A stretch of DNA of 15,630 nucleotides from a virus (IMGVR_UViG_2534681702_000002), one strand, 5' to 3'. Counted from the stretch's first letter, positions 2,869 to 15,630 are shown. A program made the numbers and translations. The notes: generated by a model not told the origin, from the letters alone.

Positions 2869-3951
2869 TTAGAACTGATACACCAGACCTACAGCGACGA
2901 TGTCGTCGGTATCAATACCAGCTGTTTTGGTAAACTTACTATCGTCAATTAAGTTGATTTTGTAATCAACAAAAGTGGACATGTTTTTATTAAAGTAGTA
3001 AGTAGCACCGACATCGACATACTTGACTAAGTCTCGGTCACCATGAACACCAAGGTCTTTACCTTTTGACTGAAGGTAAGCAACAGATGGTCGCAGACCG
3101 AAGTCAAACTGATATTGTGCTACTGCTTCAAAGTTTTGTGCTTTGTTTGCAATATGGTTATTACCAAAAACGGTCATATTCTGAGTTTCAGAATATGTGG
3201 TAGCCAGATAGATATTGTTCGCATCATATTTCAGGCCTGCAGCCCATACTTCCGCATTTTTGCCGGAGGCATTGAATTTGCTCTTACCATAGGCGACCTG
3301 ACCGTCAGTGCGATCTGATTTAGCATAGGTTGCACCCACGCCGAATCCTTCATACTCATAAGTAGTGGAGAAACCGAAACCATCACCATTGGCTTCAGTT
3401 ACGTCAGTGCGGTCATTTTTACCCTGATACTGAGCAGCAAAGTTCAGGCCATCGACCAGACCAAAGAAGTCGTTGTTACGATAGGTTGCAACACCAGTGG
3501 TGCGACCAGTCATGAACACATCTGTTTGGGTCCAGGTATCGCCACCGAATTCTGGCAGAACGTCAGTCCACGCACCGATGTCGTATGCTACACCGTAGTT
3601 ACGGCCGTAATCGATTGAGCCGTAGTCACCGAATTTCAGGCCTGCAAATGCAAGACGGGTTTTGTCTTTGGAGGAACCTTGAGATTCAGCGCGGTTGCCT
3701 TTGAATTCATATTCCCACTGACCGAAACCAGTCAGTTGATCGTTGATTTGGGTTTCACCTTTGAAGCCAAGACGGGCATAAGTAGTATCACCATCATCTG
3801 CATCGTTAGAGGAAAAGTAGTGCTTGGCATTAACTTTCCCGTACAGATCCAGCTTGTTACTGTCTTTATTATAAATTTCAGCTGCCTGAGCAGACATCGT
3901 CATCAGTACTGATGCAGCTACAGCAGAAATTGCCACTGTTAATTTTTTCAT
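2869..3951 (-). CDS. nmpC: Outer-membrane porin, OmpC/Lc family (NmpC-like), 360 aa, apparently intact
   Basis: Signal peptide [23 protein letters not shown] followed by [16 protein letters not shown] and a C-terminal ...AVGLVYQF beta-barrel terminus. This is the classic general-porin signature and matches recalled NmpC/Lc. Confidence 0.85.
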
Positions 3952-6977: not shown

Positions 6978-7523
6978 ATGGAAGTCAACAAAAAGCAGCT
7001 GGCTGACATTTTCGGTGCGAGTATCCGTACCATTCAGAACTGGCAGGAACAGGGAATGCCCGTTCTGCGAGGCGGTGGCAAGGGTAATGAGGTGCTTTAT
7101 GACTCTGCCGCCGTTATAAGATGGTATGCCGAAAGGGATGCTGAAATTGAGAACGAAAAGCTGCGCCGGGAAGTTGAAGAACTGCGGCAGGCCAGCGAGA
7201 CAGATCTCCAGCCAGGGACTATTGAGTACGAACGCCATCGACTTACGCGTGCGCAGGCCGACGCACAGGAGCTGAAAAATGCCAGAGACTCCGCTGAAGT
7301 GGTGGAAACCGCATTCTGTACTTTCGTGCTGTCGCGGATCGCAGGTGAAATTGCCAGTATTCTCGACGGGATCCCCCTGTCGGTGCAGCGGCGTTTTCCG
7401 GAACTGGAAAACCGACATGTTGATTTCCTGAAACGGGATATCATCAAAGCCATGAACAAAGCAGCCGCGCTGGATGAACTGATACCGGGGTTGCTGAGTG
7501 AATATATCGAACAGTCAGGTTAA
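6978..7523 (+). CDS. nohD: Terminase small subunit Nu1 (181 aa)
   Basis: MEVNKKQLADIFGASIRTIQNWQEQGMPVLRGGGKGNEVLYDSAAVIRWYAERD... is near-identical to recalled lambda Nu1 across its length. Confidence 0.92.
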   Translation: MEVNKKQLADIFGASIRTIQNWQEQGMPVLRGGGKGNEVLYDSAAVIRWYAERDAEIENEKLRREVEELRQASETDLQPGTIEYERHRLTRAQADAQELKNARDSAEVVETAFCTFVLSRIAGEIASILDGIPLSVQRRFPELENRHVDFLKRDIIKAMNKAAALDELIPGLLSEYIEQSG

Positions 7524-7713
7524 CAGGCTGCGGCATTTTGTCCGCGCCGGGCTTCGCTCACTGTTCAGGCCGGAGCCACAGACCGCCGTTGAATGGGCGG
7601 ATGCTAATTACTATCTCCCGAAAGAATCCGCATACCAGGAAGGGCGCTGGGAAACACTGCCCTTTCAGCGGGCCATCATGAATGCGATGGGCAGCGACTA
7701 TAACTGTTATTAA
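7498..7713 (+). pseudogene. Terminase large subunit (gpA) N-terminal fragment, about 66 native codons then divergence and a stop
   Basis: MNISNSQVNRLRHFVRAGLRSLFRPEPQTAVEWADANYYLPKESAYQEGRWETLPFQRAIMNAMGSDY matches the recalled lambda gpA N-terminus. Downstream of about 7700 the sequence is unrelated (NCY*). The start overlaps the Nu1 end as in lambda. Confidence 0.85.
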
Positions 7714-8626
7714 TGAAAATCCGACAGCACAAGGATATCAGGCAATTGCTGTAAACACGAATGATGCTTACACCTGCCCGGCAGGTTCTTATACGACGAT
7801 ATCGTGTCTGACGAAAAGTGATAATTCCCGGTGTCGTGCAAGGTTCGGAAAAATGTCTGATAATGGTGCGTTTGTTTTTCATTCAGATGCAGTTCTGGAT
7901 CCTGTTACGGGAAATGTTGTTCATGGAAATAATGTGACGGTGACGGCAGAAAGAGTCGGTGAATGGTGGTTGTTTACCGCCACTCTTTTTGCAGATGCGG
8001 AAATGATAATCAGCTCAAGATTTGAAATCCTGGCGATGCCTGGAATCAGTATTATCCCCAATGGCTCTACGTTAGATATTGCGATGCCTCAGGCGGAGAT
8101 TGGGTCGTACAGGACGTCATTTATCATTACTGAAGGGGCTCCTGGCACTCGCTCCAGCGACATGGTGACAATACCTGTAAGAAACAATATTCACCGATTA
8201 CCATTCAGTGCTCTTGTTGAAGTTAATAAAAACTGGGATATCCCTCCCAGCAAATCACCATTAATCTTTAATGTTAAAGATTATCAGGAAAATGGTCTGT
8301 TCACGCATGGATTCCGTGGTAATAATTTCTCTGATGCCGGTTCTCCTTTTATTTCTATGGGAGGGTGTAATAAATATGTGGCAACAACCCAGAGGAAAAT
8401 CATTTCAGGCTTCCGTTGTGGCGCTGATGGAGATGTTCAGGCCGTATGTAATGGTGAATTATCTGTTGCGGCAAAAACAACATGGACTTCAATTGTTCCA
8501 CGGGCAGTATTGCGAATTGGAGGGCAGGGCACTAATGGGGAGTATCATCTTTTTGGTCATATCCGTAATCTGCGTATCTGGCATAAAGAATTAACTGATG
8601 CGCAAATGGGGGAGAGTATTAAATGA
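7682..8626 (+). CDS. Chimeric ORF (314 aa): C-terminal fragment of a phage fibre / receptor-binding-type protein with a ConA/LamG-like C-terminus; its first 7 codons are terminase-A sequence read out of frame
   Basis: C-terminal ...NGEYHLFGHIRNLRIWHKELTDAQMGESIK resembles the end of LamG/concanavalin-like lectin domains. The ATG at 7682 has no convincing Shine-Dalgarno and sits inside the gpA remnant. Domain call is pattern recognition only. Confidence 0.4.
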   Translation: MRWAATITVINENPTAQGYQAIAVNTNDAYTCPAGSYTTISCLTKSDNSRCRARFGKMSDNGAFVFHSDAVLDPVTGNVVHGNNVTVTAERVGEWWLFTATLFADAEMIISSRFEILAMPGISIIPNGSTLDIAMPQAEIGSYRTSFIITEGAPGTRSSDMVTIPVRNNIHRLPFSALVEVNKNWDIPPSKSPLIFNVKDYQENGLFTHGFRGNNFSDAGSPFISMGGCNKYVATTQRKIISGFRCGADGDVQAVCNGELSVAAKTTWTSIVPRAVLRIGGQGTNGEYHLFGHIRNLRIWHKELTDAQMGESIK

Positions 8627-8904
8627 AAGATTTAACACTCAAATTTGCAGACAGGGCCGACTTTTCGGCCTTTATGGAGAGTATTGGCTATTATGATGAC
8701 GAGTCGATGCAGGATGATATTCTTATTGACGTGATAGGTAACGTGTACAAAGAAACCGGAGAACTGACTGAAGATGGCGAACCGGTATGTGTTAAGGAAG
8801 ACGGATATTTTGTAAACGTGCGCATCATTAATGATGTAAAAAAATCGTCAATATTCGATAAATACGCGGTTGTTGTTGAGCATCAACTTCGTGGCTGGAT
8901 GTGA
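8623..8904 (+). CDS. Hypothetical acidic protein (93 aa)
   Basis: ATG overlaps the stop of the preceding ORF (AAATGA). No recognisable motif. Separated from the next ORF, in the same frame, by one TGA plus 9 nt. Confidence 0.45.
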   Translation: MKDLTLKFADRADFSAFMESIGYYDDESMQDDILIDVIGNVYKETGELTEDGEPVCVKEDGYFVNVRIINDVKKSSIFDKYAVVVEHQLRGWM

Positions 8905-8913
8905 GGGAGACAA

Positions 8914-9618
8914 ATGGCTACATCGACAGTAATTCCAGGAGATATCACCACGCTAAAGGGAGATGTCAGTAAAACTAAGGAAGATATTTCCTCAATTAAC
9001 GGAAAAGTATCAACGCTTCAGACTGATATGACCAGTGCAAAGCAGGATATCAGCACCAGATACACAAAAACTGAAGTTGATAATAAGCTGAAAAACAAAC
9101 TGGAAGTGAACGATCTGGAAAGCGGTCGTTATGGTGGAGATTTTTACCCGTTGACTGGCCGTGAAGCGTTTTATATGTGGGGATTGGGCACGACTACAGC
9201 GGCGGCAAACCTTTATCTTAATCCTGACCCTGCAATTTCGTCTGTACTGCGGTCAACATCGTCTATTCGCTATAAACATTCAGTAGAGACGATAGATTCA
9301 GAGCACGCCGATCTCATTTTCAGGATGCGCCCTGTGTGGTACAGGTCGCAATACGAAAATGACAGGCGTGACTGGGGATTCTACGGATTGATTGCCGAGG
9401 AAGTAGGAGAAATTGCCCCTCAGTTTGTACACTGGCGACCAGCTAACGAAGATGATGCTCCTGAAGCTATTTCCAGCAATGGCCTTGTTGCCGAAGGTGT
9501 AATGTACGAACGTCTGGTTGTTCCACTGATTCACCATATCCAGAAGCTGACTGAAAGAGTTGATGAACTTGAGTCAGAATTAAAGTTGTTATCCGTTTCC
9601 CGAAGCGATATCGGATAA
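8914..9618 (+). CDS. Tail-fibre-like protein (234 aa): N-terminal coiled coil plus C-terminal intramolecular-chaperone (peptidase S74-type) domain
   Basis: GAGGGAG Shine-Dalgarno before the ATG. C-terminal segment ...RMRPVWYRSQ...GFYGLIAEEVGEIAPQFVHW...GVMYERLVVPLIHHIQKLTERVDELESELK fits the conserved pattern of fibre/tailspike auto-cleaving chaperone domains. N-terminal 70 residues are heptad-like (KGDVSKTKEDISSINGKVSTLQTDMTSAKQDIS). Confidence 0.6.
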   Translation: MATSTVIPGDITTLKGDVSKTKEDISSINGKVSTLQTDMTSAKQDISTRYTKTEVDNKLKNKLEVNDLESGRYGGDFYPLTGREAFYMWGLGTTTAAANLYLNPDPAISSVLRSTSSIRYKHSVETIDSEHADLIFRMRPVWYRSQYENDRRDWGFYGLIAEEVGEIAPQFVHWRPANEDDAPEAISSNGLVAEGVMYERLVVPLIHHIQKLTERVDELESELKLLSVSRSDIG

Positions 9619-9628
9619 AGGAGGAGTA

Positions 9629-9922
9629 ATGGATATAACACCTTTCCTTCATGCGCTTTGTGCTGTGGCTGCGCAGCTACTGATTGGTCTTTTTACCGGG
9701 AACTGGGCTTACGGGGCGATAGCCGGTTGTACGTTCTTCATTGCGCGTGAACACACCCAGGCAGAATATCGCTGGATCGAAATGTTCGGGCATGGCAAGC
9801 GAATGAATATGCCGTGGTGGGGCGGTTTTGATACACGTGCATGGGATGTGGCAAGCCTGATGGATTTTGCTGTGCCGGTGGTGGCGTGTCTGCTGGTCTG
9901 GCTGTTGGTTAATCGTGGGTGA
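9629..9922 (+). CDS. Small membrane protein (97 aa) with two predicted transmembrane helices
   Basis: Strong AGGAGG Shine-Dalgarno 6 nt before the ATG. Hydrophobic stretches at about residues 8-32 and 77-94, with a Trp/Arg-rich loop between them. No recognisable family. Confidence 0.55.
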   Translation: MDITPFLHALCAVAAQLLIGLFTGNWAYGAIAGCTFFIAREHTQAEYRWIEMFGHGKRMNMPWWGGFDTRAWDVASLMDFAVPVVACLLVWLLVNRG

Positions 9923-9932
9923 AAAAAGGTGA

Positions 9933-10052
9933 GCTGTATATGCAACGGAGGAAGAAAACTCGTTGCTGGAAGCCTGGAAAAAGTATCGGGTGCTGCTAAA
10001 CCGTGTGGACACTTCCGTAGCACCAGATATCGAGTGGCTTATTCAACCATAA
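9933..10052 (+). pseudogene. tfaX: 3' remnant of a tail-fibre-assembly (Tfa) gene, about 39 codons, no start codon
   Basis: Open frame translates ...[36 protein letters not shown], matching the recalled C-terminus of lambda-type Tfa proteins. Position directly upstream of appY matches K-12 tfaX. Confidence 0.55.
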
Positions 10053-10596
10053 TAAACAGTATGTATATCATAGGTTATTAATTGTGAGTTTTTTCGGTGT
10101 GTTATTTGTTTGTTTGATGTTATGCTTTTGCGCCCCAAAAGGTTGTTTAGATGTATTTTATCAATTGATTTTCAATGTCGTTTAATAAAGAAAAATTAAG
10201 CAAGCTGGATGTTGGTTTTTTGTTAATTGAATGGTTCTAATAATGTTTTTTTACTGTTGTTGAATGTGACTTGATAAGAAATGCAAGTAAAAATGATACT
10301 CTTTTTATTTTAAATTCAAACGGTTGACATATATATAGCAAGAGGTTTCAGGTGCGTTGTAGTGAGTTTATGTTAATAAAAAGTATAGTAAGCGTTGAAA
10401 AATGTAACTTTGAAATACGTTAGAATAAAAACAATATACATATAATAATTTAATCTTAAATGAAATTTATTAAAATTTGCAAACTATAATTTTGTGTATA
10501 AAAATATAAATGCACATCATCCTGATTATGATTGTGTATTTAATTGGTTGTTATTTGACTGCTATCAACTTGTTTTAATTTTATGATAGGTGCAAG

Positions 10597-11339
10597 ATGG
10601 ATTATGTTTGCTCCGTAGTTTTCATCTGTCAATCATTTGATTTAATTATAAACAGGAGAGTTATCTCGTTCAAAAAAAATTCATTGTTTATTGTAAGCGA
10701 CAAAATTAGAAGGGAGTTACCAGTATGCCCCTCTAAACTAAGAATTGTTGATATAGATAAGAAAACATGTTTATCCTTTTTTATCGACGTGAATAATGAG
10801 CTGCCTGGCAAATTTACTCTTGATAAGAATGGCTATATTGCTGAAGAGGAACCTCCATTATCGCTTGTTTTTTCTCTGTTTGAAGGGATTAAAATAGCAG
10901 ACTCACACTCCCTTTGGTTAAAAGAAAGACTATGTATATCCTTACTTGCCATGTTCAAAAAACGCGAAAGTGTAAATTCATTTATACTAACAAATATAAA
11001 TACATTCACCTGTAAAATTACTGGAATAATCAGTTTTAATATTGAGCGGCAATGGCATTTAAAAGATATTGCGGAATTGATTTATACGAGTGAAAGTTTA
11101 ATAAAAAAAGATTAAGGGATGAAGGAACGTCATTTACTGAAATATTGAGAGATACTAGGATGAGGTATGCAAAAAAACTCATAACTTCAAACTCTTATTC
11201 TATCAATGTCGTAGCCCAGAAATGTGGCTATAACAGTACTTCATATTTCATATGTGCATTTAAAGATTATTATGGTGTCACGCCATCTCATTATTTTGAG
11301 AAAATAATCGGCGTCACAGATGGAATAAACAGGTAATGA
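10597..11339 (+). pseudogene. appY: AraC-family regulator AppY, disrupted by a 1-bp frameshift at an A7 run (11103..11109) and by an IS1 insertion 12 nt before its native stop
   Basis: The 172-aa ORF (10597..11115) and the 63-aa ORF (11145..11336) are in different frames, yet together form a continuous AraC-type C-terminal helix-turn-helix domain (...[19 protein letters not shown] / [25 protein letters not shown]...[18 protein letters not shown]). The native last codons (AAA ACA ATT GAC TGA) lie at 12882..12896, beyond the IS1 pair. Confidence 0.85.
11323..11331. repeat. 9-bp target-site duplication GAATAAACA, left copy, of the outer IS1
   Basis: Identical 9-mer immediately flanks both ends of the outer IS1 (11323..11331 and 12876..12884). 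Confidence 0.85.
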
Positions 11340-11378
11340 CTCCAACTTATTGATAGTGTTTTAGGTAGTGACTCCAAC

Positions 11379-11882
11379 TTACTGATAGTGTTTTATGTTC
11401 AGATAATGCCCGATGACCTTGTCATGCAGCTCCACCGATTTTGAGAACGACAGTGACTTCCGTCCCAGCCTTGCCAGATGTTGTCTCAGATTCAGATTAT
11501 GTCGCTCAATGCGCTGAGTGTAACGCTTGCTGATAACGTGCAGCTTTCCCTTCAGGCGTGATTCATACAGCGGCCAGCCATCCGTCATCCATACCACGAC
11601 CTCAAAGGCCGACAGCAGGCTCAGAAGACGCGCCAGTGTGGCCAGAGTGCGTTCACCGAAAACGTGCGCCACAACTGTCCTCCGTATCCTGTCATACGCG
11701 TAAAACAGCCAGCGCTGACGTGATTTAGCACCGACGTAGCCCCACTGTTCGTCCATTTCCGCGCAGACAATCACATCACTGCCCGGTTGTATGCGCGAGG
11801 TTACCGACTGCGGCCTGAGTTTTTTAAGTGACGTAAAACCGTGTTGAGGCCAACGCCCATAATGCGGGCAGTTGCCCGGCAT
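11379..11882 (-). CDS. insB: IS1 InsB reading frame (167 aa), expressed as the InsAB' transposase by -1 frameshifting; inner copy
   Basis: Translation matches IS1 InsB. Overlaps insA in the -1 frame. Identical at protein level to the copy at 14634..15137. Confidence 0.9.
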
Positions 11883-12076
11883 CCAACGCCATTCATGGCC
11901 ATATCAATGATTTTCTGGTGCGTACCGGGTTGAGAAGCGGTGTAAGTGAACTGCAGTTGCCATGTTTTACGGCAGTGAGAGCAGAGATAGCGCTGATGTC
12001 CGGCGGTGCTTTTGCCGTTACGCACCACCCCGTCAGTAGCTGAACAGGAGGGACAGCTGATAGAAACAGAAGCCAC
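11801..12076 (-). CDS. insA: IS1 InsA (91 aa), inner copy
   Basis: [43 protein letters not shown]... is the zinc-finger plus HTH InsA. The A6C frameshift motif (TTAAAAAAC) lies at its 3' end. Confidence 0.9.
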
Positions 12077-12104
12077 TGGAGCACCTCAAAAACACCATCA
12101 TACA

Positions 12105-12626
12105 CTAAATCAGTAAGTTGGCAGCATCACCGTGTTTTATGTTCAGATAATGCCCGATGACTTTGTCATGCAGCTCCACCGATTTTGAGAACGACAGCGA
12201 CTTCCGTCCCAGCCGTGCCAGGTGCTGCCTCAGATTCAGGTTATGCCGCTCAATTCGCTGCGTATATCGCTTGCTGATTGCGTGCAGCTTTCCCTTCAGG
12301 CGGGATTCATACAGCGGCCAGCCATCCGTCATCCATATCACCACGTCAAAGGGTGACAGCAGGCTCATAAGACGCCCCAGCGTCGCCATAGTGCGTTCAC
12401 CGAATACGTGCGCAACAACCGTCTTCCGGAGCCTGTCATACGCGTAAAACAGCCAGCGCTGGCGCGATTTAGCCCCGACGTATCCCCACTGTTCGTCCAT
12501 TTCCGCGCAGACGATGACGTCACTGCCCGGCTGTATGCGCGAGGTTACCGACTGCGGCCTGAGTTTTTTAAATGGCGGAAAATCGTGTTGAGGCCAACGC
12601 CCATAATGCGGGCGGTTGCCCGGCAT
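12105..12626 (-). CDS. insB: IS1 InsB reading frame, outer copy; C-terminus altered (…[11 protein letters not shown]) because the ORF runs into the inserted inner IS1
   Basis: About 90% identical to the inner InsB. The last two native codons (YQ) are replaced by read-through into the inner IS1 end, extending the ORF to 173 aa. Confidence 0.8.
12132..12139. repeat. 8-bp target-site duplication GTGTTTTA, right copy, of the inner IS1 (left copy at 11356..11363)
   Basis: Direct 8-bp repeat, itself part of the outer IS1 sequence, flanking the inner 768-bp element. Confidence 0.85.
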
Positions 12627-12820
12627 CCAACGCCATTCATGGCCATATCAATGATTTTCTGGTGCGTACCGGGTTGAGAAGCGGTGTAAGTGAACTGCAG
12701 TTGCCATGTTTTACGGCAGTGAGAGCAGAGATAGCGCTGATGTCCGGCAGTGCTTTTGCCGTTACGCACCACCCCGTCAGTAGCTGAACAGGAGGGACAG
12801 CTGATAGAAACAGAAGCCAC
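12545..12820 (-). CDS. insA: IS1 InsA (91 aa), outer copy
   Basis: InsA-like. Differs from the inner copy at two residues (…GLNTIFRHL versus …GLNTVLRHL). Confidence 0.9.
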
Positions 12821-12875
12821 TGGAGCACCTCAAAAACACCATCATACACTAAATCAGTAAGTTGGCAGCATCACC

Positions 12876-12884
12876 GAATAAACA
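12876..12884. repeat. 9-bp target-site duplication GAATAAACA, right copy, of the outer IS1; also restores the native appY 3' end
   Basis: Same 9-mer as 11323..11331. Reading across it gives ...GGA ATA AAC AAA ACA ATT GAC TGA (G I N K T I D *). Confidence 0.85.
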
Positions 12885-13103
12885 AAACAATTGACTGATA
12901 ATGTTTATTACAAGTTGTCTACATGTTAATTATAATATTATACAGCGTTTTTTTGATGTGATATTCTGGAACCATTAATTTGTAATTGGGTTGCTGTCGC
13001 CTATTTTATACATGCTATAATTGATGGTTTTCTATGTGATTTAGTTAATAACCTTCTGGGTTTATTTTAAGGGTTAATTGTTACATTGAAATGGCTAGTT
13101 ATT

Positions 13104-13128
13104 CCCCGGGGCGATTTTCACCTCGGGG
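13104..13128 (-). terminator. Possible weak terminator hairpin downstream of ompT
   Basis: CCCCGGGG-cgattttca-CCTCGGGG stem with one G-U pair, about 19 nt beyond the ompT stop. No convincing U-tract on the minus strand. Confidence 0.25.
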
Positions 13129-13146
13129 AAATTTTAGTTGGCGTTC

Positions 13147-14100
13147 TTAAAATGTGTACTTAAGACCAGCAGTAGTGATGAAGTTATAGTTTTCTATACC
13201 TGCTCCATTTTTGCTGTAGTCTGAAGTGTTATTATTGTGATCATAAAGTGAAGTATTACCTTTTTTATTCGTAACCCGATTCCATGCGCCTTCAACATAA
13301 ACTTTTGCGTTAGGTGTGACGTAATAACCTGCATTGACTGCAACAGAATAGTAATTTTGGTCTTTGACCTTACTGCGATAAGTGATTCTTTTTCCCGGGT
13401 CATAGTGTTCATCGTTATCAGATGATTCCACCCAGCCGCTGTATTTAAATGTGCCACCGAGTTCAAAATCTTCATAACGATAACTTCCAGTCAAGCCAAT
13501 GTAGGGCATTTTAAAACGTTGTTTGTAGCCGATTGCTCTTTCTCCATTCGGGAAGGAGCCGATATCATCTCTGAATCCCTCCTCAGAACTGTAGATATAG
13601 GAACCACCTCTGGCTGTAAAGCTATAACGGCTTTCCTGATATCCGGCCATGAGTCCCAGGCGGTAATTGGGTTCGTTGAGGAGCCAACCTTTGATATTCA
13701 GATCAAATTCGTTGGCATAATTGAGTTGTGTATCAGGGTGTCTACTTTCATCCGTCCAGGTTCCGGGGTTACTGGAATCCATCCAGTCCTGATCGACCAT
13801 ATTGCCACCTCGGCTGCCGAGAGTTGTCCAGCCAGCAGCCCCGATAGATATCTGGGGCATCAAATCCCAATTAATTGCACCTTTAATAATTGCAGCGTTA
13901 TTGAATTTCCAATCGAGTTGACTGACTTTTCGGCCTCCTTCTTCGGCTAGATAAACACGCTCTTTTGTTTTTCCGCTCAGAGTTCCAAAACTAATGTCCG
14001 CATTTATGTTGTCAGGAGTAAACGATATAGTCTCGGTAGAAGCAAAAGAGCTGATCGCAATAGGGGTTGTCAGGACTATTCCCAGAAGTTTCGCCCGCAT
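13147..14100 (-). CDS. ompT: Outer-membrane protease OmpT (omptin, protease VII), 317 aa
   Basis: MRAKLLGIVLTTPIAISSFASTETISFTPDNINADISFGTLSGKTKERVYLAEEGGRKVSQLDWKFNNAAIIKGAINWDL... matches recalled OmpT over the full length. Ends with the beta-barrel terminus ...AGLKYTF. Confidence 0.95.
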   Translation of the reverse strand: MRAKLLGIVLTTPIAISSFASTETISFTPDNINADISFGTLSGKTKERVYLAEEGGRKVSQLDWKFNNAAIIKGAINWDLMPQISIGAAGWTTLGSRGGNMVDQDWMDSSNPGTWTDESRHPDTQLNYANEFDLNIKGWLLNEPNYRLGLMAGYQESRYSFTARGGSYIYSSEEGFRDDIGSFPNGERAIGYKQRFKMPYIGLTGSYRYEDFELGGTFKYSGWVESSDNDEHYDPGKRITYRSKVKDQNYYSVAVNAGYYVTPNAKVYVEGAWNRVTNKKGNTSLYDHNNNTSDYSKNGAGIENYNFITTAGLKYTF

Positions 14101-14439
14101 AAAAGTTCTCCATTCAATCGTTTTAATGATTGAATATGTATTTTTTATATCTAACTTAATGAGTCAATTACATATTGCTCCACTGTTTATATTTTGTTTA
14201 GTATTGAATGATTATCACAATGCGCTATCTGTTTTTGGTTTAATTATCTGTTATTGTTTCATATTGCGGTTTTACTGTGTGGTTTTTTTATGCTTTTGTG
14301 GTGCTTTTATCTATTTAAGTGCCATGCCTTTAGAGGCATATAAGCGAAAATAGCATGAGGTTTATCCTCAATTACTATGTTTTTGGTGATGCTGCCAACT
14401 TACTGATTTAGTGTATGATGGTGTTTTTGAGGTGCTCCA

Positions 14440-14715
14440 GTGGCTTCTGTTTCTATCAGCTGTCCCTCCTGTTCAGCTACTGACGGGGTGGTGCGTAACG
14501 GCAAAAGCACCGCCGGACATCAGCGCTATCTCTGCTCTCACTGCCGTAAAACATGGCAACTGCAGTTCACTTACACCGCTTCTCAACCCGGTACGCACCA
14601 GAAAATCATTGATATGGCCATGAATGGCGTTGGATGCCGGGCAACTGCCCGCATTATGGGCGTTGGCCTCAACACGGTTTTACGTCACTTAAAAAACTCA
14701 GGCCGCAGTCGGTAA
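14440..14715 (+). CDS. insA: IS1 InsA (91 aa), third copy
   Basis: Protein identical to InsA of the inner IS1. Confidence 0.9.
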
Positions 14716-15137
14716 CCTCGCGCATACAACCGGGCAGTGATGTGATTGTCTGCGCGGAAATGGACGAACAGTGGGGCTACGTCGGTGCTAAATCACGTCA
14801 GCGCTGGCTGTTTTACGCGTATGACAGGATACGGAGGACAGTTGTGGCGCACGTTTTCGGTGAACGCACTCTGGCCACACTGGCGCGTCTTCTGAGCCTG
14901 CTGTCGGCCTTTGAGGTCGTGGTATGGATGACGGATGGCTGGCCGCTGTATGAATCACGCCTGAAGGGAAAGCTGCACGTTATCAGCAAGCGTTACACTC
15001 AGCGCATTGAGCGACATAATCTGAATCTGAGACAACATCTGGCAAGGCTGGGACGGAAGTCACTGTCGTTCTCAAAATCGGTGGAGCTGCATGACAAGGT
15101 CATCGGGCATTATCTGAACATAAAACACTATCAGTAA
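14634..15137 (+). CDS. insB: IS1 InsB reading frame (167 aa), third copy
   Basis: Protein identical to InsB of the inner IS1. A6C frameshift motif TTAAAAAACTC at about 14690. Confidence 0.9.
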
Positions 15138-15154
15138 GTTGGAGTCACTACCCG

Positions 15155-15630
15155 TTAGCGGATATTTGTTTGCCTCCTTTTTTTTACCCAGCATACCCCA
15201 TCCCAACAATTTGAATTAAATGTCGTAAAATTGATAACTTCTTTACCTTTTGAAAAATATGTTATTGGGCAAAACTCATCTCCACTTAATGGTTTAAAGC
15301 TGGTTATTATGTCACAATTTAATTGTTGTGATAGTGATTGAGCGATGAAATCAGTTAGAGATGGAAGATACTTGCTTTCAATCGATGTTGTTGATGTGCC
15401 GAAATCAACTTCATAAGAAAAATCAATCTTCGCTAGTAATTCAATATATTCTGCATCTTTGTCAATAAAAGATGTGTCATAAGTAATGTTTTTTTATACT
15501 CATTTACATCAAAGTAGTCATATTTTAATATCGAAAAGTCAATGTCTAGAGCATTTACAAACTTATAAATACTATCGGTTAGTTTACTTTTATCTTTATA
15601 CTCTATGAGTATACTTGATTTGGTGATCAT
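15155..15630 (-). pseudogene. Low-GC gene of unknown function, frameshifted at an A7 run (plus-strand T7 at 15489..15495); stop codon 2 bp from the IS1 end
   Basis: The minus-strand ATG sits exactly at the window edge, so the true N-terminus may lie beyond it. Frame a reads MITKSS...DYFDVNEYKK and stops at 15433. The adjacent frame continues NITYDTSFIDKDAEYIELLAKIDFSYEVDFG...CWVKKRRQTNIR* for about 113 codons with no Met, so it is a continuation rather than a separate gene. Identity unknown. Confidence 0.4.

What the first reader, a model, noticed from the sequence alone, without database searches (positions are those of the whole stretch)
8623..9922. Three intact, well-signalled small genes persist inside an otherwise eroded tail region
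Amid truncated terminase, fibre and Tfa fragments, three ORFs remain intact with good ribosome-binding sites: a 93-aa acidic protein, a 234-aa coiled-coil protein with an S74-type chaperone domain, and a 97-aa two-helix membrane protein. Their retention hints at a selected function. One speculative possibility is a receptor-masking or superinfection-exclusion role for the membrane protein, by analogy with small membrane or lipoprotein genes next to receptor-binding genes in other phages. Separately, the 93-aa and 234-aa ORFs share a frame and are separated only by TGA plus 9 nt, so they could be one gene split by a nonsense mutation. I cannot assign any of the three to a described family from sequence alone.
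Basis: inference. Interest (0 to 1): 0.6.

Follow-up and report, generated by a model that had tools for sequence, protein, structure and literature searches.

The report
Stranded side-tail-fibre accessory gene cassette
The three intact small genes are the standard tail end of a phage side-tail-fibre operon left behind by a recent deletion in a DLP12-type cryptic prophage. This is ordinary, except that the 97-residue membrane protein belongs to a widespread, strongly conserved and wholly uncharacterised phage family.

Summary
ORFs of 93, 234 and 97 aa lie at 8623-9922 with good ribosome-binding sites, between a terminase fragment, a truncated fibre gene and a Tfa fragment. The window is a DLP12-like cryptic prophage at argU of an ETEC-type E. 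coli.

The trio is a fixed cassette. Plaque-forming lambdoid phages such as PhiR49_1 carry Stf-93-234-97 in the same order. Phage 21 carries Stf-92-97. T1-like and T5-like virulent phages carry fibre-92-distal fibre.

- **93-aa ORF:** a stand-alone family (phrog_1361), so 93 and 234 are not a split gene.
- **234-aa ORF:** a distal mini-fibre with a conserved N-terminal docking peptide, a coiled coil and a self-cleaving S74 chaperone with an intact Ser/Lys pair.
- **97-aa ORF:** a member of phrog_1443, a three-helix membrane family with no Pfam entry. It is about 60% identical in Aeromonas and Comamonas prophages.

All three evolve under purifying selection among phage alleles. Retention in this remnant is not evidence of selection. 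The deletion junction occurs in only 31 of 5,426 complete genomes, and the 25 best-matching genomes are 100% identical over the 2.6 kb around it. K-12-type DLP12 remnants lack the trio. A superinfection-exclusion role for the 97-aa protein is possible but untested.

The parts
6978..7523 (+). nohD, terminase small subunit (context; left edge of the eroded late region)
   Evidence: Pfam Phage_Nu1, E 2e-101. Annotated nohD in NZ_CP024275.
7498..7700 (+). 5' fragment of the terminase large subunit gene. The ORF runs on to a stop at 7713.
   Evidence: Query bases 1-141 of 7560-7860 match 'phage terminase large subunit' genes in about 3,800 genomes. This stretch is absent from EC0026B.
7700..7701 (.). 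Deletion junction joining the terminase-A 5' end to the middle of the side tail fibre gene
   Evidence: Megablast matches split at query position 141, with terminase to the left and 'prophage tail fiber N-terminal domain-containing protein' to the right. Only 31 of 5,426 genomes span it. Window 7700-11331 aligns with L059 20001-23634.
7700..8626 (+). C-terminal roughly 309 codons of the proximal side tail fibre (Stf), with a GTA-spike-fibre-like domain and a lectin-like LamG-type end. The ATG at 7682 lies in terminase-derived DNA and has no Shine-Dalgarno sequence.
   Evidence: phrog_1419 'tail protein', positions 474-793 of 793, E 1e-81. NCBIfam GTA_spike_fiber, 43.8 bits against a cut-off of 36. 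Weak Laminin_G_3 match. Full-length 781-aa version in EC0026B. Sequence around 7682 read.
8623..8904 (+). 93-aa acidic fibre-associated protein. Its start overlaps the Stf stop (ATGA).
   Evidence: phrog_1361, full length, E 2e-46. 183 phage records, always beside lateral fibre genes in lambdoid, T1-like, T5-like, Dhillonvirus, Queuovirinae and rV5-like phages. dN/dS 0.16-0.26 in the more divergent comparisons, 0.5-1.0 in the three closest. AF2 alpha/beta fold, pLDDT 82.
8914..9618 (+). 234-aa distal mini-fibre: docking peptide, coiled coil and self-cleaving chaperone
   Evidence: phrog_3299, C-terminal 1147-1384 of 1385, E 6e-139. Same 234-aa gene in PhiR49_1 and IdasGreatGrand, and 57-60% identical homologues of 220-231 aa in Drexlerviridae. 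dN/dS 0.16-0.19.
8914..9009 (+). N-terminal docking peptide of the 234-aa protein (residues 1-32, MATSTVIPxDIxxLK...)
   Evidence: 66% identical to the N-terminus of the otherwise unrelated 346-aa Tritos allele. Also matches phrog_4563 and phrog_19752 at residues 1-32/34. The same motif heads PeterMerian gp29 and IrisVonRoten gp24.
9259..9591 (+). S74 intramolecular chaperone domain (residues 116-226), with predicted cleavage Ser116 (9259-9261) and Lys121 (9274-9276)
   Evidence: Pfam PF13884 at 116-172, 27.6 bits. Aligns with 8hqz_d 'L-shaped tail fiber assembly' 952-1068 and with the MYRF auto-processing domain. S-x-x-R-x-K motif found at residue 116.
9629..9922 (+). 97-aa three-helix membrane protein of an uncharacterised phage accessory family
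   Evidence: phrog_1443, full length, E 3e-58. 453 clusters at 90% identity and 435 at 50%. AF2 pLDDT 91.6. No Pfam, NCBIfam, PADLOC or PDB match. dN/dS 0.07-0.28.
9746..9766 (+). Codons for the invariant R40-E41-x-x-Q44-A45-E46 motif of the 97-aa family
   Evidence: Alignments A1 and A3. Invariant H8, R40, E41, Q44, W72 and P83; nearly invariant A45, E46, R58 and D79, across sequences down to 30% identity.
9942..10052 (+). C-terminal fragment of a tail fibre assembly (Tfa) gene, a relic of an older fibre module
   Evidence: Annotated 'tail fiber assembly protein, missing N-terminus' in NZ_CP024275. K-12-type loci match from query base 193 (window 9942) onward.

Best explanation
The three ORFs are the 3' end of the side (lateral) tail-fibre operon of a lambda/phage-21-like prophage. 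A deletion fused the 5' end of the terminase large-subunit gene to the middle of the fibre gene at about 7700 and stranded them.

**In a working phage (inferred).** The operon is read late, from the Q-dependent late transcript.
- The proximal fibre Stf has a lectin-like C-terminal end.
- Stf is translationally coupled to the 93-aa protein. This small acidic alpha/beta protein accompanies this fibre type in temperate and virulent coliphages. It most likely acts as an assembly factor or connector.
- The 234-aa protein is the distal fibre element. A conserved N-terminal peptide docks it on the proximal fibre. A coiled coil trimerises with the help of the C-terminal S74 chaperone, which then cuts itself off at Ser116. 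This leaves a stub of about 115 residues.
- The 97-aa protein inserts into the cytoplasmic membrane. It belongs to a mobile phage accessory family that usually closes tail-fibre operons. Its most likely role is to act on a conserved envelope or inner-membrane target, for example exclusion of incoming phage DNA. That step is inference only.

**In this window.** There is no virion to build. The genes are intact because the deletion is recent and happened to end upstream of them. No demonstrable selection in the host is needed.

**Shown:** the identity of the cassette, its synteny, purifying selection among phages, the junction and its rarity.
**Inferred:** the roles of the 93-aa and 97-aa proteins, and expression.
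For: **Synteny.**
- PhiR49_1 (plaque-forming) has J-lom-Stf(812 aa)-93-234-97 with identical spacing.
- Tritos has Stf-93-346-97.
- Phage 21 has Stf-92-97.
- PeterMerian (T1-like) has fibre-92-231.
- IrisVonRoten (T5-like) has gp22-gp23(92 aa)-gp24. PMC11990801 models gp24 as a distal fibre attached to the proximal fibre.
- Among the 80 closest IMG/VR proviral loci, about 40 are 93-234-97, about 31 are 93-346-97 and 6 are 92-97.

**Family assignments:**

**Conserved docking peptide and Ser/Lys pair:**

**Purifying selection:** dN/dS 0.07-0.28 for the 234-aa and 97-aa genes, and 0.16-0.26 for the 93-aa gene in the more divergent comparisons.

**Recency and lack of universal retention.**
- The junction is in 31 of 5,426 genomes.
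- The 25 best matches are 100% identical over 2,601 bases.
- EC0026B carries an independent deletion (nohD to mid-J) that keeps the full Stf plus the trio.
- Only 242 genomes have the 97-aa gene beside tfa'-appY. K-12 derivatives match only from the Tfa fragment onward.

**Expression signals:** no sigma-70-like promoter on the + strand between 7400 and 10200, and no terminator-like site after the 97-aa gene.
Against: - BASEL annotators call the T1-like 231-aa homologue a 'putative lateral tail fiber chaperone', not a fibre. So the structural-versus-chaperone role of the 234-aa protein is open.
- Two independent deletions (this window and EC0026B) both spared the trio. That is weakly compatible with selection.
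- 97-aa homologues also occur away from fibre genes and in non-phage chromosomal settings. Its function is therefore probably not fibre assembly.
- The promoter scan is a crude consensus search.
Confidence: 0.78

Rival explanations
1. The trio, or at least the 97-aa membrane protein, has been domesticated. It is kept by selection in the host because it blocks superinfecting phages, by receptor masking or by blocking DNA entry.
For: - It is a small membrane protein next to receptor-binding genes, mostly in temperate phages and prophages.
- It is the most conserved gene of the module (dN/dS 0.07-0.28).
- Members occur in moron-like positions, including an early-gene cluster and inside a tail operon.
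- Two independent deletions spared it.
- Cryptic-prophage fibre genes can block adsorption in another system, StfE2 of e14 (PMC12529663).
Against: - No PADLOC, Pfam or NCBIfam match.
- No lipobox. Cys11 is not conserved and the residue before it is Leu.
- About 60% identity from E. coli to Comamonas and Aeromonas is unlike fast-evolving receptor maskers.
- No promoter-like site on its strand.
- It overlaps the stop of late fibre or Tfa genes in other phages, which implies late expression.
- K-12-type DLP12 loci have lost it.
- The remnant with this junction is young and nearly clonal.
Confidence: 0.15
2. The 93-aa and 234-aa ORFs are one ancestral gene split by a nonsense mutation.
For: They share a frame and are separated only by TGA plus 9 nt.
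Against: - The 93-aa protein matches phrog_1361 end to end (1-93 against 1-92 of 92).
- The identical two-ORF arrangement is present in the plaque-forming phage PhiR49_1.
- Phage 21 has the 92-aa gene followed directly by the 97-aa gene.
- The 9-nt gap carries the Shine-Dalgarno sequence of the second gene.
- The N-terminus of the 234-aa protein (MATSTVIP...) is the conserved start of distal-fibre proteins in four phage groups.
Confidence: 0.02
3. The 234-aa gene is a decayed, internally deleted remnant of a long fibre gene and has no function even in phages.
For: It aligns with only the last 238 positions of the 1,385-position phrog_3299 profile. It has no recognisable receptor-binding domain between the coiled coil and the chaperone.
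Against: - The same 234-aa length occurs in 32 of 80 proviral loci and in plaque-forming phages.
- Homologues 57-60% identical and about 220-231 aa long occur in more than 40 virulent Drexlerviridae.
- dN/dS is 0.16-0.19.
- The Ser116/Lys121 pair is intact.
Confidence: 0.08
4. The remnant persists as a recombination reservoir. Its homologous flanks (the 93-aa and 97-aa genes) let infecting lambdoid phages swap in the fibre cassette. The benefit falls to phages, not to the host.
For: - Lambda acquires functional genes from DLP12 and fibre genes from Rac and Qin by homologous recombination (PMC3945230).
- The cassette has conserved flanks around a variable middle gene: 234 aa, 346 aa or none.
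- Identity to circulating phages is 93-98%.
Against: This describes a consequence, not a force that keeps the genes intact in the chromosome. No recombinant was observed here.
Confidence: 0.3
5. The 97-aa protein is a holin or lysis accessory, as with the holin genes that follow the tail-fibre genes in T4 and T7.
For: It is a small protein with three hydrophobic helices at the end of a late operon. The position of holin genes after fibre genes in T4 and T7 is from general knowledge.
Against: - No holin family match in Pfam.
- The C-terminal tail is three residues long, with no charged domain.
- The prophage has its own lysis cassette, essD-rrrD-rzpD.
- The family has invariant polar residues and also occurs in non-phage chromosomal settings.
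Confidence: 0.03

Closest known systems
Two-part lateral tail fibres of T5-like phage IrisVonRoten (Bas32): gp22 proximal fibre, gp23 (92 aa), gp24 distal fibre with intramolecular chaperone (PMC11990801)
   Same: - Same gene order.
- The proximal fibre ends in the same ...IRIGGQ..G..HLFGH.RN.RIWHKELTD.Q motif.
- The 92-aa protein is 38% identical to the 93-aa protein.
- The distal protein starts with the same M-x-T-x-TVIP-x-DI-x-x-LK peptide and ends in an S74 chaperone.
   Different: - gp24 is 574 aa with two receptor-binding domains. The window protein is 234 aa with no recognisable binding domain.
- IrisVonRoten has no 97-aa gene.
- In the window the proximal fibre is truncated, so no fibre can attach to a tail.
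Lateral fibre locus of T1-like Drexlerviridae (for example PeterMerian Bas05 gp31-gp30-gp29; PMC8594841)
   Same: Fibre, 92-aa protein (47% identical) and 231-aa protein (about 57-58% identical over 91% of the length), in the same order.
   Different: These are virulent phages with no 97-aa membrane gene. gp29 is annotated as a putative chaperone, not a fibre.
Phage 21 side tail fibre region (OL657228: CPT_21_22 to CPT_21_24)
   Same: Stf of the same family, a 92-aa protein (53% identical) and a 97-aa 'putative membrane protein' (95% identical).
   Different: No middle distal-fibre gene. Phage 21 is a complete, working phage.
Branched LtfA/LtfB fibres of T5-like DT57C (PMC4728585, PMC10713586)
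   Same: Two fibre proteins. The second is attached through the first. Both mature through pfam13884 chaperones.
   Different: No small gene lies between them. In DT57C both LtfA and LtfB carry the chaperone domain. No chaperone domain was detected in the retained C-terminal part of the Stf here. No sequence similarity outside the chaperone and coiled-coil repeats.
Small membrane or lipoprotein exclusion factors beside receptor-binding genes (T5 Llp, Cor of phi80/N15/mEp phages, T4 Imm, HK97 gp15, P22 SieA)
   Same: A small envelope protein encoded next to, or within, tail or fibre genes. This positional analogy rests on general knowledge and on PMC10883804 listed.
   Different: No sequence similarity, no lipobox and no evidence of prophage-state expression. 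Conservation across bacterial classes is far higher.

Membership tests
S74 / intramolecular chaperone auto-processing tail-fibre proteins (for the 234-aa ORF) | C-terminal Pfam PF13884 domain above the gathering score | tested here: met
   27.6 bits against a cut-off of 22, residues 116-172. Aligns with 8hqz_d 952-1068 and with MYRF.
S74 / intramolecular chaperone auto-processing tail-fibre proteins (for the 234-aa ORF) | Catalytic Ser and Lys five residues apart at the cleavage site (S-x-x-R-x-K) | tested here: met
   S116-S-I-R-Y-K121 is found in the window and PhiR49_1 proteins. The equivalent motif is found in PeterMerian and IrisVonRoten gp24. The motif definition is from general knowledge of endosialidase and T5 pb1.
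S74 / intramolecular chaperone auto-processing tail-fibre proteins (for the 234-aa ORF) | Trimerisation followed by self-cleavage that releases the chaperone | not testable with these tools
   Needs protein expression and SDS-PAGE or mass spectrometry.
Two-part lateral tail-fibre cassette (proximal fibre, ~92-aa protein, distal fibre) | Gene order, with the ~92-aa gene overlapping the stop of the proximal fibre gene | tested here: met
   Window 8623-8626 ATGA overlap. Same arrangement in PhiR49_1, Tritos, phage 21, PeterMerian and IrisVonRoten.
Two-part lateral tail-fibre cassette (proximal fibre, ~92-aa protein, distal fibre) | Distal protein begins with the conserved docking peptide | tested here: met
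   MATSTVIPGDITTLKGD aligned with four other phages.
Two-part lateral tail-fibre cassette (proximal fibre, ~92-aa protein, distal fibre) | Complete proximal fibre with an N-terminal tail-attachment domain | tested here: not met
   Only profile positions 474-793 of 793 remain. The junction is at about 7700. The cassette is therefore a non-functional remnant here.
Tfa / gp38-type tail fibre assembly chaperones (for the 93-aa ORF) | Sequence membership in a known Tfa family | tested here: not met
phrog_1361 and phrog_1443 (PHROG families of unknown function) | Full-length profile match | tested here: met
   The 93-aa protein matches 1-93 against 1-92 of 92, E 2e-46. The 97-aa protein matches 1-96 against 1-96 of 97, E 3e-58.
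Superinfection-exclusion or receptor-masking proteins (for the 97-aa ORF) | Homology to a described exclusion or defence protein | tested here: not met
   No PADLOC hit. No Pfam or NCBIfam hit.
Superinfection-exclusion or receptor-masking proteins (for the 97-aa ORF) | Lipobox, as in Llp and Cor | tested here: not met
   The sequence is ..H-A-L-C11.., with Leu at -1. Cys11 is not conserved in the family.
Superinfection-exclusion or receptor-masking proteins (for the 97-aa ORF) | Expression from the prophage through its own promoter (moron-like unit) | tested here: inconclusive
   No promoter-like or terminator-like site flanks the gene on the + strand. The scan is only a consensus search.
Superinfection-exclusion or receptor-masking proteins (for the 97-aa ORF) | Exclusion phenotype | not testable with these tools
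   Needs plating and adsorption assays.
Holins (for the 97-aa ORF) | Holin family match, a charged C-terminal tail and a location in the lysis cassette | tested here: not met
   No Pfam holin match. The C-terminus is N-R-G. The lysis cassette essD-rrrD-rzpD lies about 4 kb upstream.

The most novel reading that the evidence does not exclude
The 97-aa protein represents an undescribed class of minimal three-helix inner-membrane proteins, with an invariant H8 / R40-E41 / Q44 / W72 / P83 set plus E46, R58 and D79. Phages of Gamma-, Beta- and Alphaproteobacteria carry it at the end of receptor-binding operons, and it also sits in sphingomonad chromosomes. It could act as a small oligomeric enzyme or channel, or as an exclusion factor aimed at a universally conserved inner-membrane target. 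The 93-aa partner, seen with it in Escherichia and apparently in some Comamonas and Pantoea loci, might be functionally linked to it.
Probability: 0.25. Interest if true: 0.6.

Novelty: new member of a known kind. Interest (0 to 1): 0.3.

Why it matters
For this locus the result is deflationary. Intact ORFs in a decayed prophage need not mean domestication when the deletion is young and the genes are the ordinary end of a fibre operon.

Two points are more useful:
- The fibre / ~92-aa protein / distal-fibre cassette is shared by lambdoid, T1-like, T5-like and other coliphages. It has conserved joints: the docking peptide and the flanking small genes. This explains how host-range modules are swapped, and it offers handles for fibre engineering.
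- The 97-aa family is abundant (about a third of complete E. coli genomes and 435 clusters at 50% identity). It is strongly conserved and has no described function. That makes it a cheap and tractable target for finding a new phage-host membrane interaction.

Tried and rejected
**Searches that returned nothing useful.**
- Pfam, NCBIfam and PADLOC scans of the 93-aa and 97-aa proteins found nothing. A Pfam scan of 35 diverse family members gave only noise.
- PDB sequence searches with the 93-aa protein and with the 97-aa family profile found nothing meaningful.
- The afdb50 library was not available.
- A profile search of 1.84 billion representatives found only stand-alone proteins of about 60-146 residues. 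No fusions to annotated domains turned up.
- Rfam had no match in the window.
- Literature searches found no characterisation of either small family. This covered phage 21, DLP12, ECOR phages, exclusion and morons.
The scan with A1 returned only close E. coli relatives.

**Ideas considered and dropped.**
- Split gene.
- Holin.
- Lipoprotein receptor masker.
- The 234-aa gene as a decay product.
Full report
**Where the window comes from.** The window is a DLP12-type cryptic prophage at the argU tRNA site of E. coli. Bases 7500-10100 are 100% identical to several ETEC-type chromosomes, for example O6:H16 strain M9682-C1. The annotation there reads as follows:
- intD, rusA, quuD, an ompC-like porin, essD-rrrD-rzpD, iss, ylcI and nohD
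- a partial gene, then a 'phage head spike fiber domain' protein and a hypothetical protein
- a 'tail fiber domain-containing protein', a second hypothetical protein and a partial Tfa gene
- appY, IS1 and ompT

**The observation.** It holds in every detail.
- The three ORFs are at 8623-8904, 8914-9618 and 9629-9922.
- Each has a Shine-Dalgarno sequence. The first ATG overlaps the stop of the upstream ORF. The first two ORFs share a frame and are separated by TGA plus 9 nt.
- The 93-aa product has pI 4.3.
- The 234-aa product passes the Pfam Peptidase_S74 threshold at residues 116-172. Its N-terminal part resembles trimeric coiled coils of the P22 tail needle and a T5-type fibre.
- The 97-aa product has hydrophobic segments at 5-24 and 74-96, with a weaker one at 25-39. 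AlphaFold2 (pLDDT 91.6) predicts three helices, at 4-23, 26-52 and 74-96.

**What the trio is.** PHROG profiles place the upstream 314-aa ORF at positions 474-793 of a 793-position 'tail protein' family. The 93-aa and 97-aa proteins match two full-length families of unknown function, phrog_1361 and phrog_1443. The 234-aa protein matches the C-terminal end of a long fibre family. The same genes occur, in the same order, in working phages:
- PhiR49_1, a plaque-forming phage, has J, lom, Stf (812 aa), then 93, 234 and 97 aa with identical spacing.
- Tritos has Stf, 93, a 346-aa fibre protein and 97.
- Phage 21 has Stf, 92 and 97 with nothing between.
- The virulent T1-like phage PeterMerian has lateral fibre, 92 and 231 aa.
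- The T5-like IrisVonRoten has gp22, gp23 (92 aa) and gp24. PMC11990801 models gp24 as a distal fibre carried by the proximal fibre.

The 93-aa family appears in 183 phage records. It is always beside lateral fibre genes, in lambdoid, T1-like, T5-like, Dhillonvirus, Queuovirinae and rV5-like phages. Among the 80 IMG/VR proviral loci closest to the window's 97-aa gene, about 40 read 93-234-97, about 31 read 93-346-97 and six read 92-97.

**Split-gene idea.** It is refuted. The 93-aa protein is a complete member of its family. The two-ORF arrangement is present in a working phage. Phage 21 has the 92-aa gene without any 234-type neighbour. The 9-nt gap is the ribosome-binding site of the second gene.

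**The 234-aa protein.**
- Its first 32 residues are 66% identical to the start of the otherwise unrelated 346-aa Tritos allele.
- The motif M-A-T-x-TVIP-x-DI-x-x-LK also heads the T1-like 231-aa protein and IrisVonRoten gp24. This is the behaviour expected of a docking peptide.
- Residues 116-121 (S-S-I-R-Y-K) give the Ser/Lys pair of self-cleaving intramolecular chaperones. The motif definition is from general knowledge of endosialidase and T5 pb1.
- Cleavage would leave a stub of about 115 residues: docking peptide, coiled coil and a short tip.

This short form is not a decay product. It has the same length in 32 of 80 proviral loci. It occurs in plaque-forming phages. It has 57-60% identical homologues of similar length in more than 40 virulent Drexlerviridae. 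It evolves with dN/dS of 0.16-0.19. Whether the mature stub is a structural cap, or the protein mainly acts as a chaperone as the BASEL annotators guessed, cannot be decided here.

**The 93-aa protein.** AlphaFold2 gives a small alpha/beta fold (pLDDT 82). It has no informative relative in the PDB or among predicted viral structures. Its constant translational coupling to the proximal fibre gene, and its presence in virulent phages, argue for a role in fibre assembly or as a connector. This is inference.

**The 97-aa protein.** This is the most interesting part.
- The family has 453 clusters at 90% identity and 435 at 50%. Almost all listed members are stand-alone proteins of about 60-146 residues.
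- It has no Pfam, NCBIfam, PADLOC or PDB match, and no name in any source.
- Identity is still about 60% in Aeromonas, Comamonas, Leclercia and Citrobacter.
- Across members down to 30% identity, H8, R40, E41, Q44, W72 and P83 are invariant. A45, E46, R58 and D79 are nearly so.

Its genomic setting is variable:
- In an Aeromonas P2/HP1-like prophage it overlaps the stop of an 875-aa fibre gene.
- In Halomonas phage phiHAP-1 it overlaps a Tfa gene.
- In Comamonas it follows a 2,520-aa J-like protein and a 72-aa ORF.
- Four of the 30 upstream neighbours scanned match phrog_18574. The window's 93-aa protein also hits that family weakly.
- Other members lie in an early-gene cluster of a phage contig and inside a tail operon.
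- In sphingomonad and other alphaproteobacterial genomes, members lie beside ligA, herA, a cyclopropane-fatty-acid synthase, AMP nucleosidase and pnp.

This distribution fits a mobile accessory membrane protein with an autonomous activity, not a fibre-assembly factor. Exclusion of superinfecting phages is a reasonable guess. However, the protein has no lipobox, no homology to known exclusion proteins and no nearby promoter-like site. Its conservation is unlike that of receptor maskers. Membrane topology could not be settled from charge distribution.

**Is retention here a sign of selection?** The evidence says no.
- The deletion junction lies at about 7700. To the left is the 5' end of the terminase large-subunit gene. 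To the right is the fibre gene.
- The ATG at 7682 that opens the 314-aa ORF lies in terminase-derived DNA in another frame. It has no Shine-Dalgarno sequence.
- Only 31 of 5,426 complete genomes span the junction.
- The 25 best matches are identical over 2,601 bases. There has been no time for decay.
- Strain EC0026B carries a different deletion at the same locus, from nohD to the middle of J. It keeps a full 781-aa Stf and the trio. Each remnant holds sequence the other lacks, so the deletions are independent.
- K-12 derivatives match only from the Tfa fragment (window 9942) onward, so they have lost the trio. 242 genomes have the 97-aa gene beside tfa'-appY. Judged from evenly spaced sampling of the ranking, a few hundred more are of the K-12 type. 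This is an estimate, not a count.
- The trio as such is present in 723 genomes, and the 97-aa gene in about 1,900, mostly with full-length fibre genes.
- All three genes show purifying selection among phage alleles. dN/dS is 0.07-0.28 for the 234-aa and 97-aa genes. It is 0.16-0.26 for the 93-aa gene in the more divergent comparisons, and 0.5-1.0 in the three closest, where substitutions are few. That signal was acquired in phages.

A realistic side effect is that such remnants feed recombination with incoming lambdoid phages, as shown for DLP12, Rac and Qin (PMC3945230). A defence role for cryptic fibre genes has one precedent, StfE2 of e14 (PMC12529663).

**Verdict.** The finding is an ordinary stranded end of a side-tail-fibre operon, another copy of a cassette already present and annotated in many phages. 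The residual interest lies in the uncharacterised 97-aa family and, to a lesser degree, the ubiquitous 93-aa fibre companion.

Noticed in passing
window 10597-11336: appY appears frameshifted near 11115-11145, giving ORFs of 172 aa and 63 aa. It is intact in NZ_CP024275 and EC0026B. Its 3' end abuts an IS1 copy. This could be a true pseudogene or a homopolymer sequencing error.
   Followed up: partly
window 11364-12131, 12132-12878, 14385-15152: There are three IS1 copies. The first and third are 100% identical inverted copies that bracket ompT (13147-14100, - strand), like a composite transposon. The second is a tandem variant about 90-94% identical to the other copies.
   Followed up: partly
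window 15153-15559: Sequence after the last IS1 matches EC0026B DNA about 9 kb beyond ompT. So envY, ybcH, nfrA and nfrB (phage N4 adsorption genes) seem to be missing in this strain, probably through an IS1-mediated rearrangement.
   Followed up: no
window about 1656-1659: A second internal deletion in the prophage early region. About 6.6 kb present in EC0026B is absent, so the DUF4222 gene abuts the ybcO/rusA region. The missing stretch runs from the TraR-like gene through ren, emrE, ybcK, ybcL, ybcM and ybcN to ninE.
   Followed up: partly
L059 (NZ_OX460326, EC0026B) 15172-22353: An independent DLP12 decay path. The terminase small-subunit gene is fused to the C-terminal part of J, followed by a full-length 781-aa Stf and the same 93-234-97 trio.
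   Followed up: yes
L002 (PV340568, PhiR49_1) 10608-14439: A plaque-forming ECOR-derived phage carries ybcY, Tfa fragments and ompT downstream of the 97-aa gene. It is effectively a live relative of DLP12 with ompT as cargo.
   Followed up: no
window 2869-3951 (- strand): The ompC/nmpC-like porin gene of the prophage is intact (360 aa). From general knowledge, the K-12 copy is interrupted by IS5.
   Followed up: no
L045, L047, L049, L052, L055, L040 (alphaproteobacterial and other genomes): Homologues of the 97-aa protein lie next to housekeeping genes (ligA, herA, phenylalanine hydroxylase, cyclopropane-fatty-acid synthase, pnp, AMP nucleosidase). No phage genes were recognised among the few neighbours scanned.
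   Followed up: partly
L016, L018, L020 (Aeromonas chromosomes; L025 has a different upstream neighbour): In several Aeromonas species a 97-aa homologue, with a possible N-terminal extension, sits at what may be a shared chromosomal spot, with variable genes downstream. Pirin matched two of the upstream neighbours scanned, probably two of these loci. It may be a domesticated copy or an integration hotspot.
   Followed up: no
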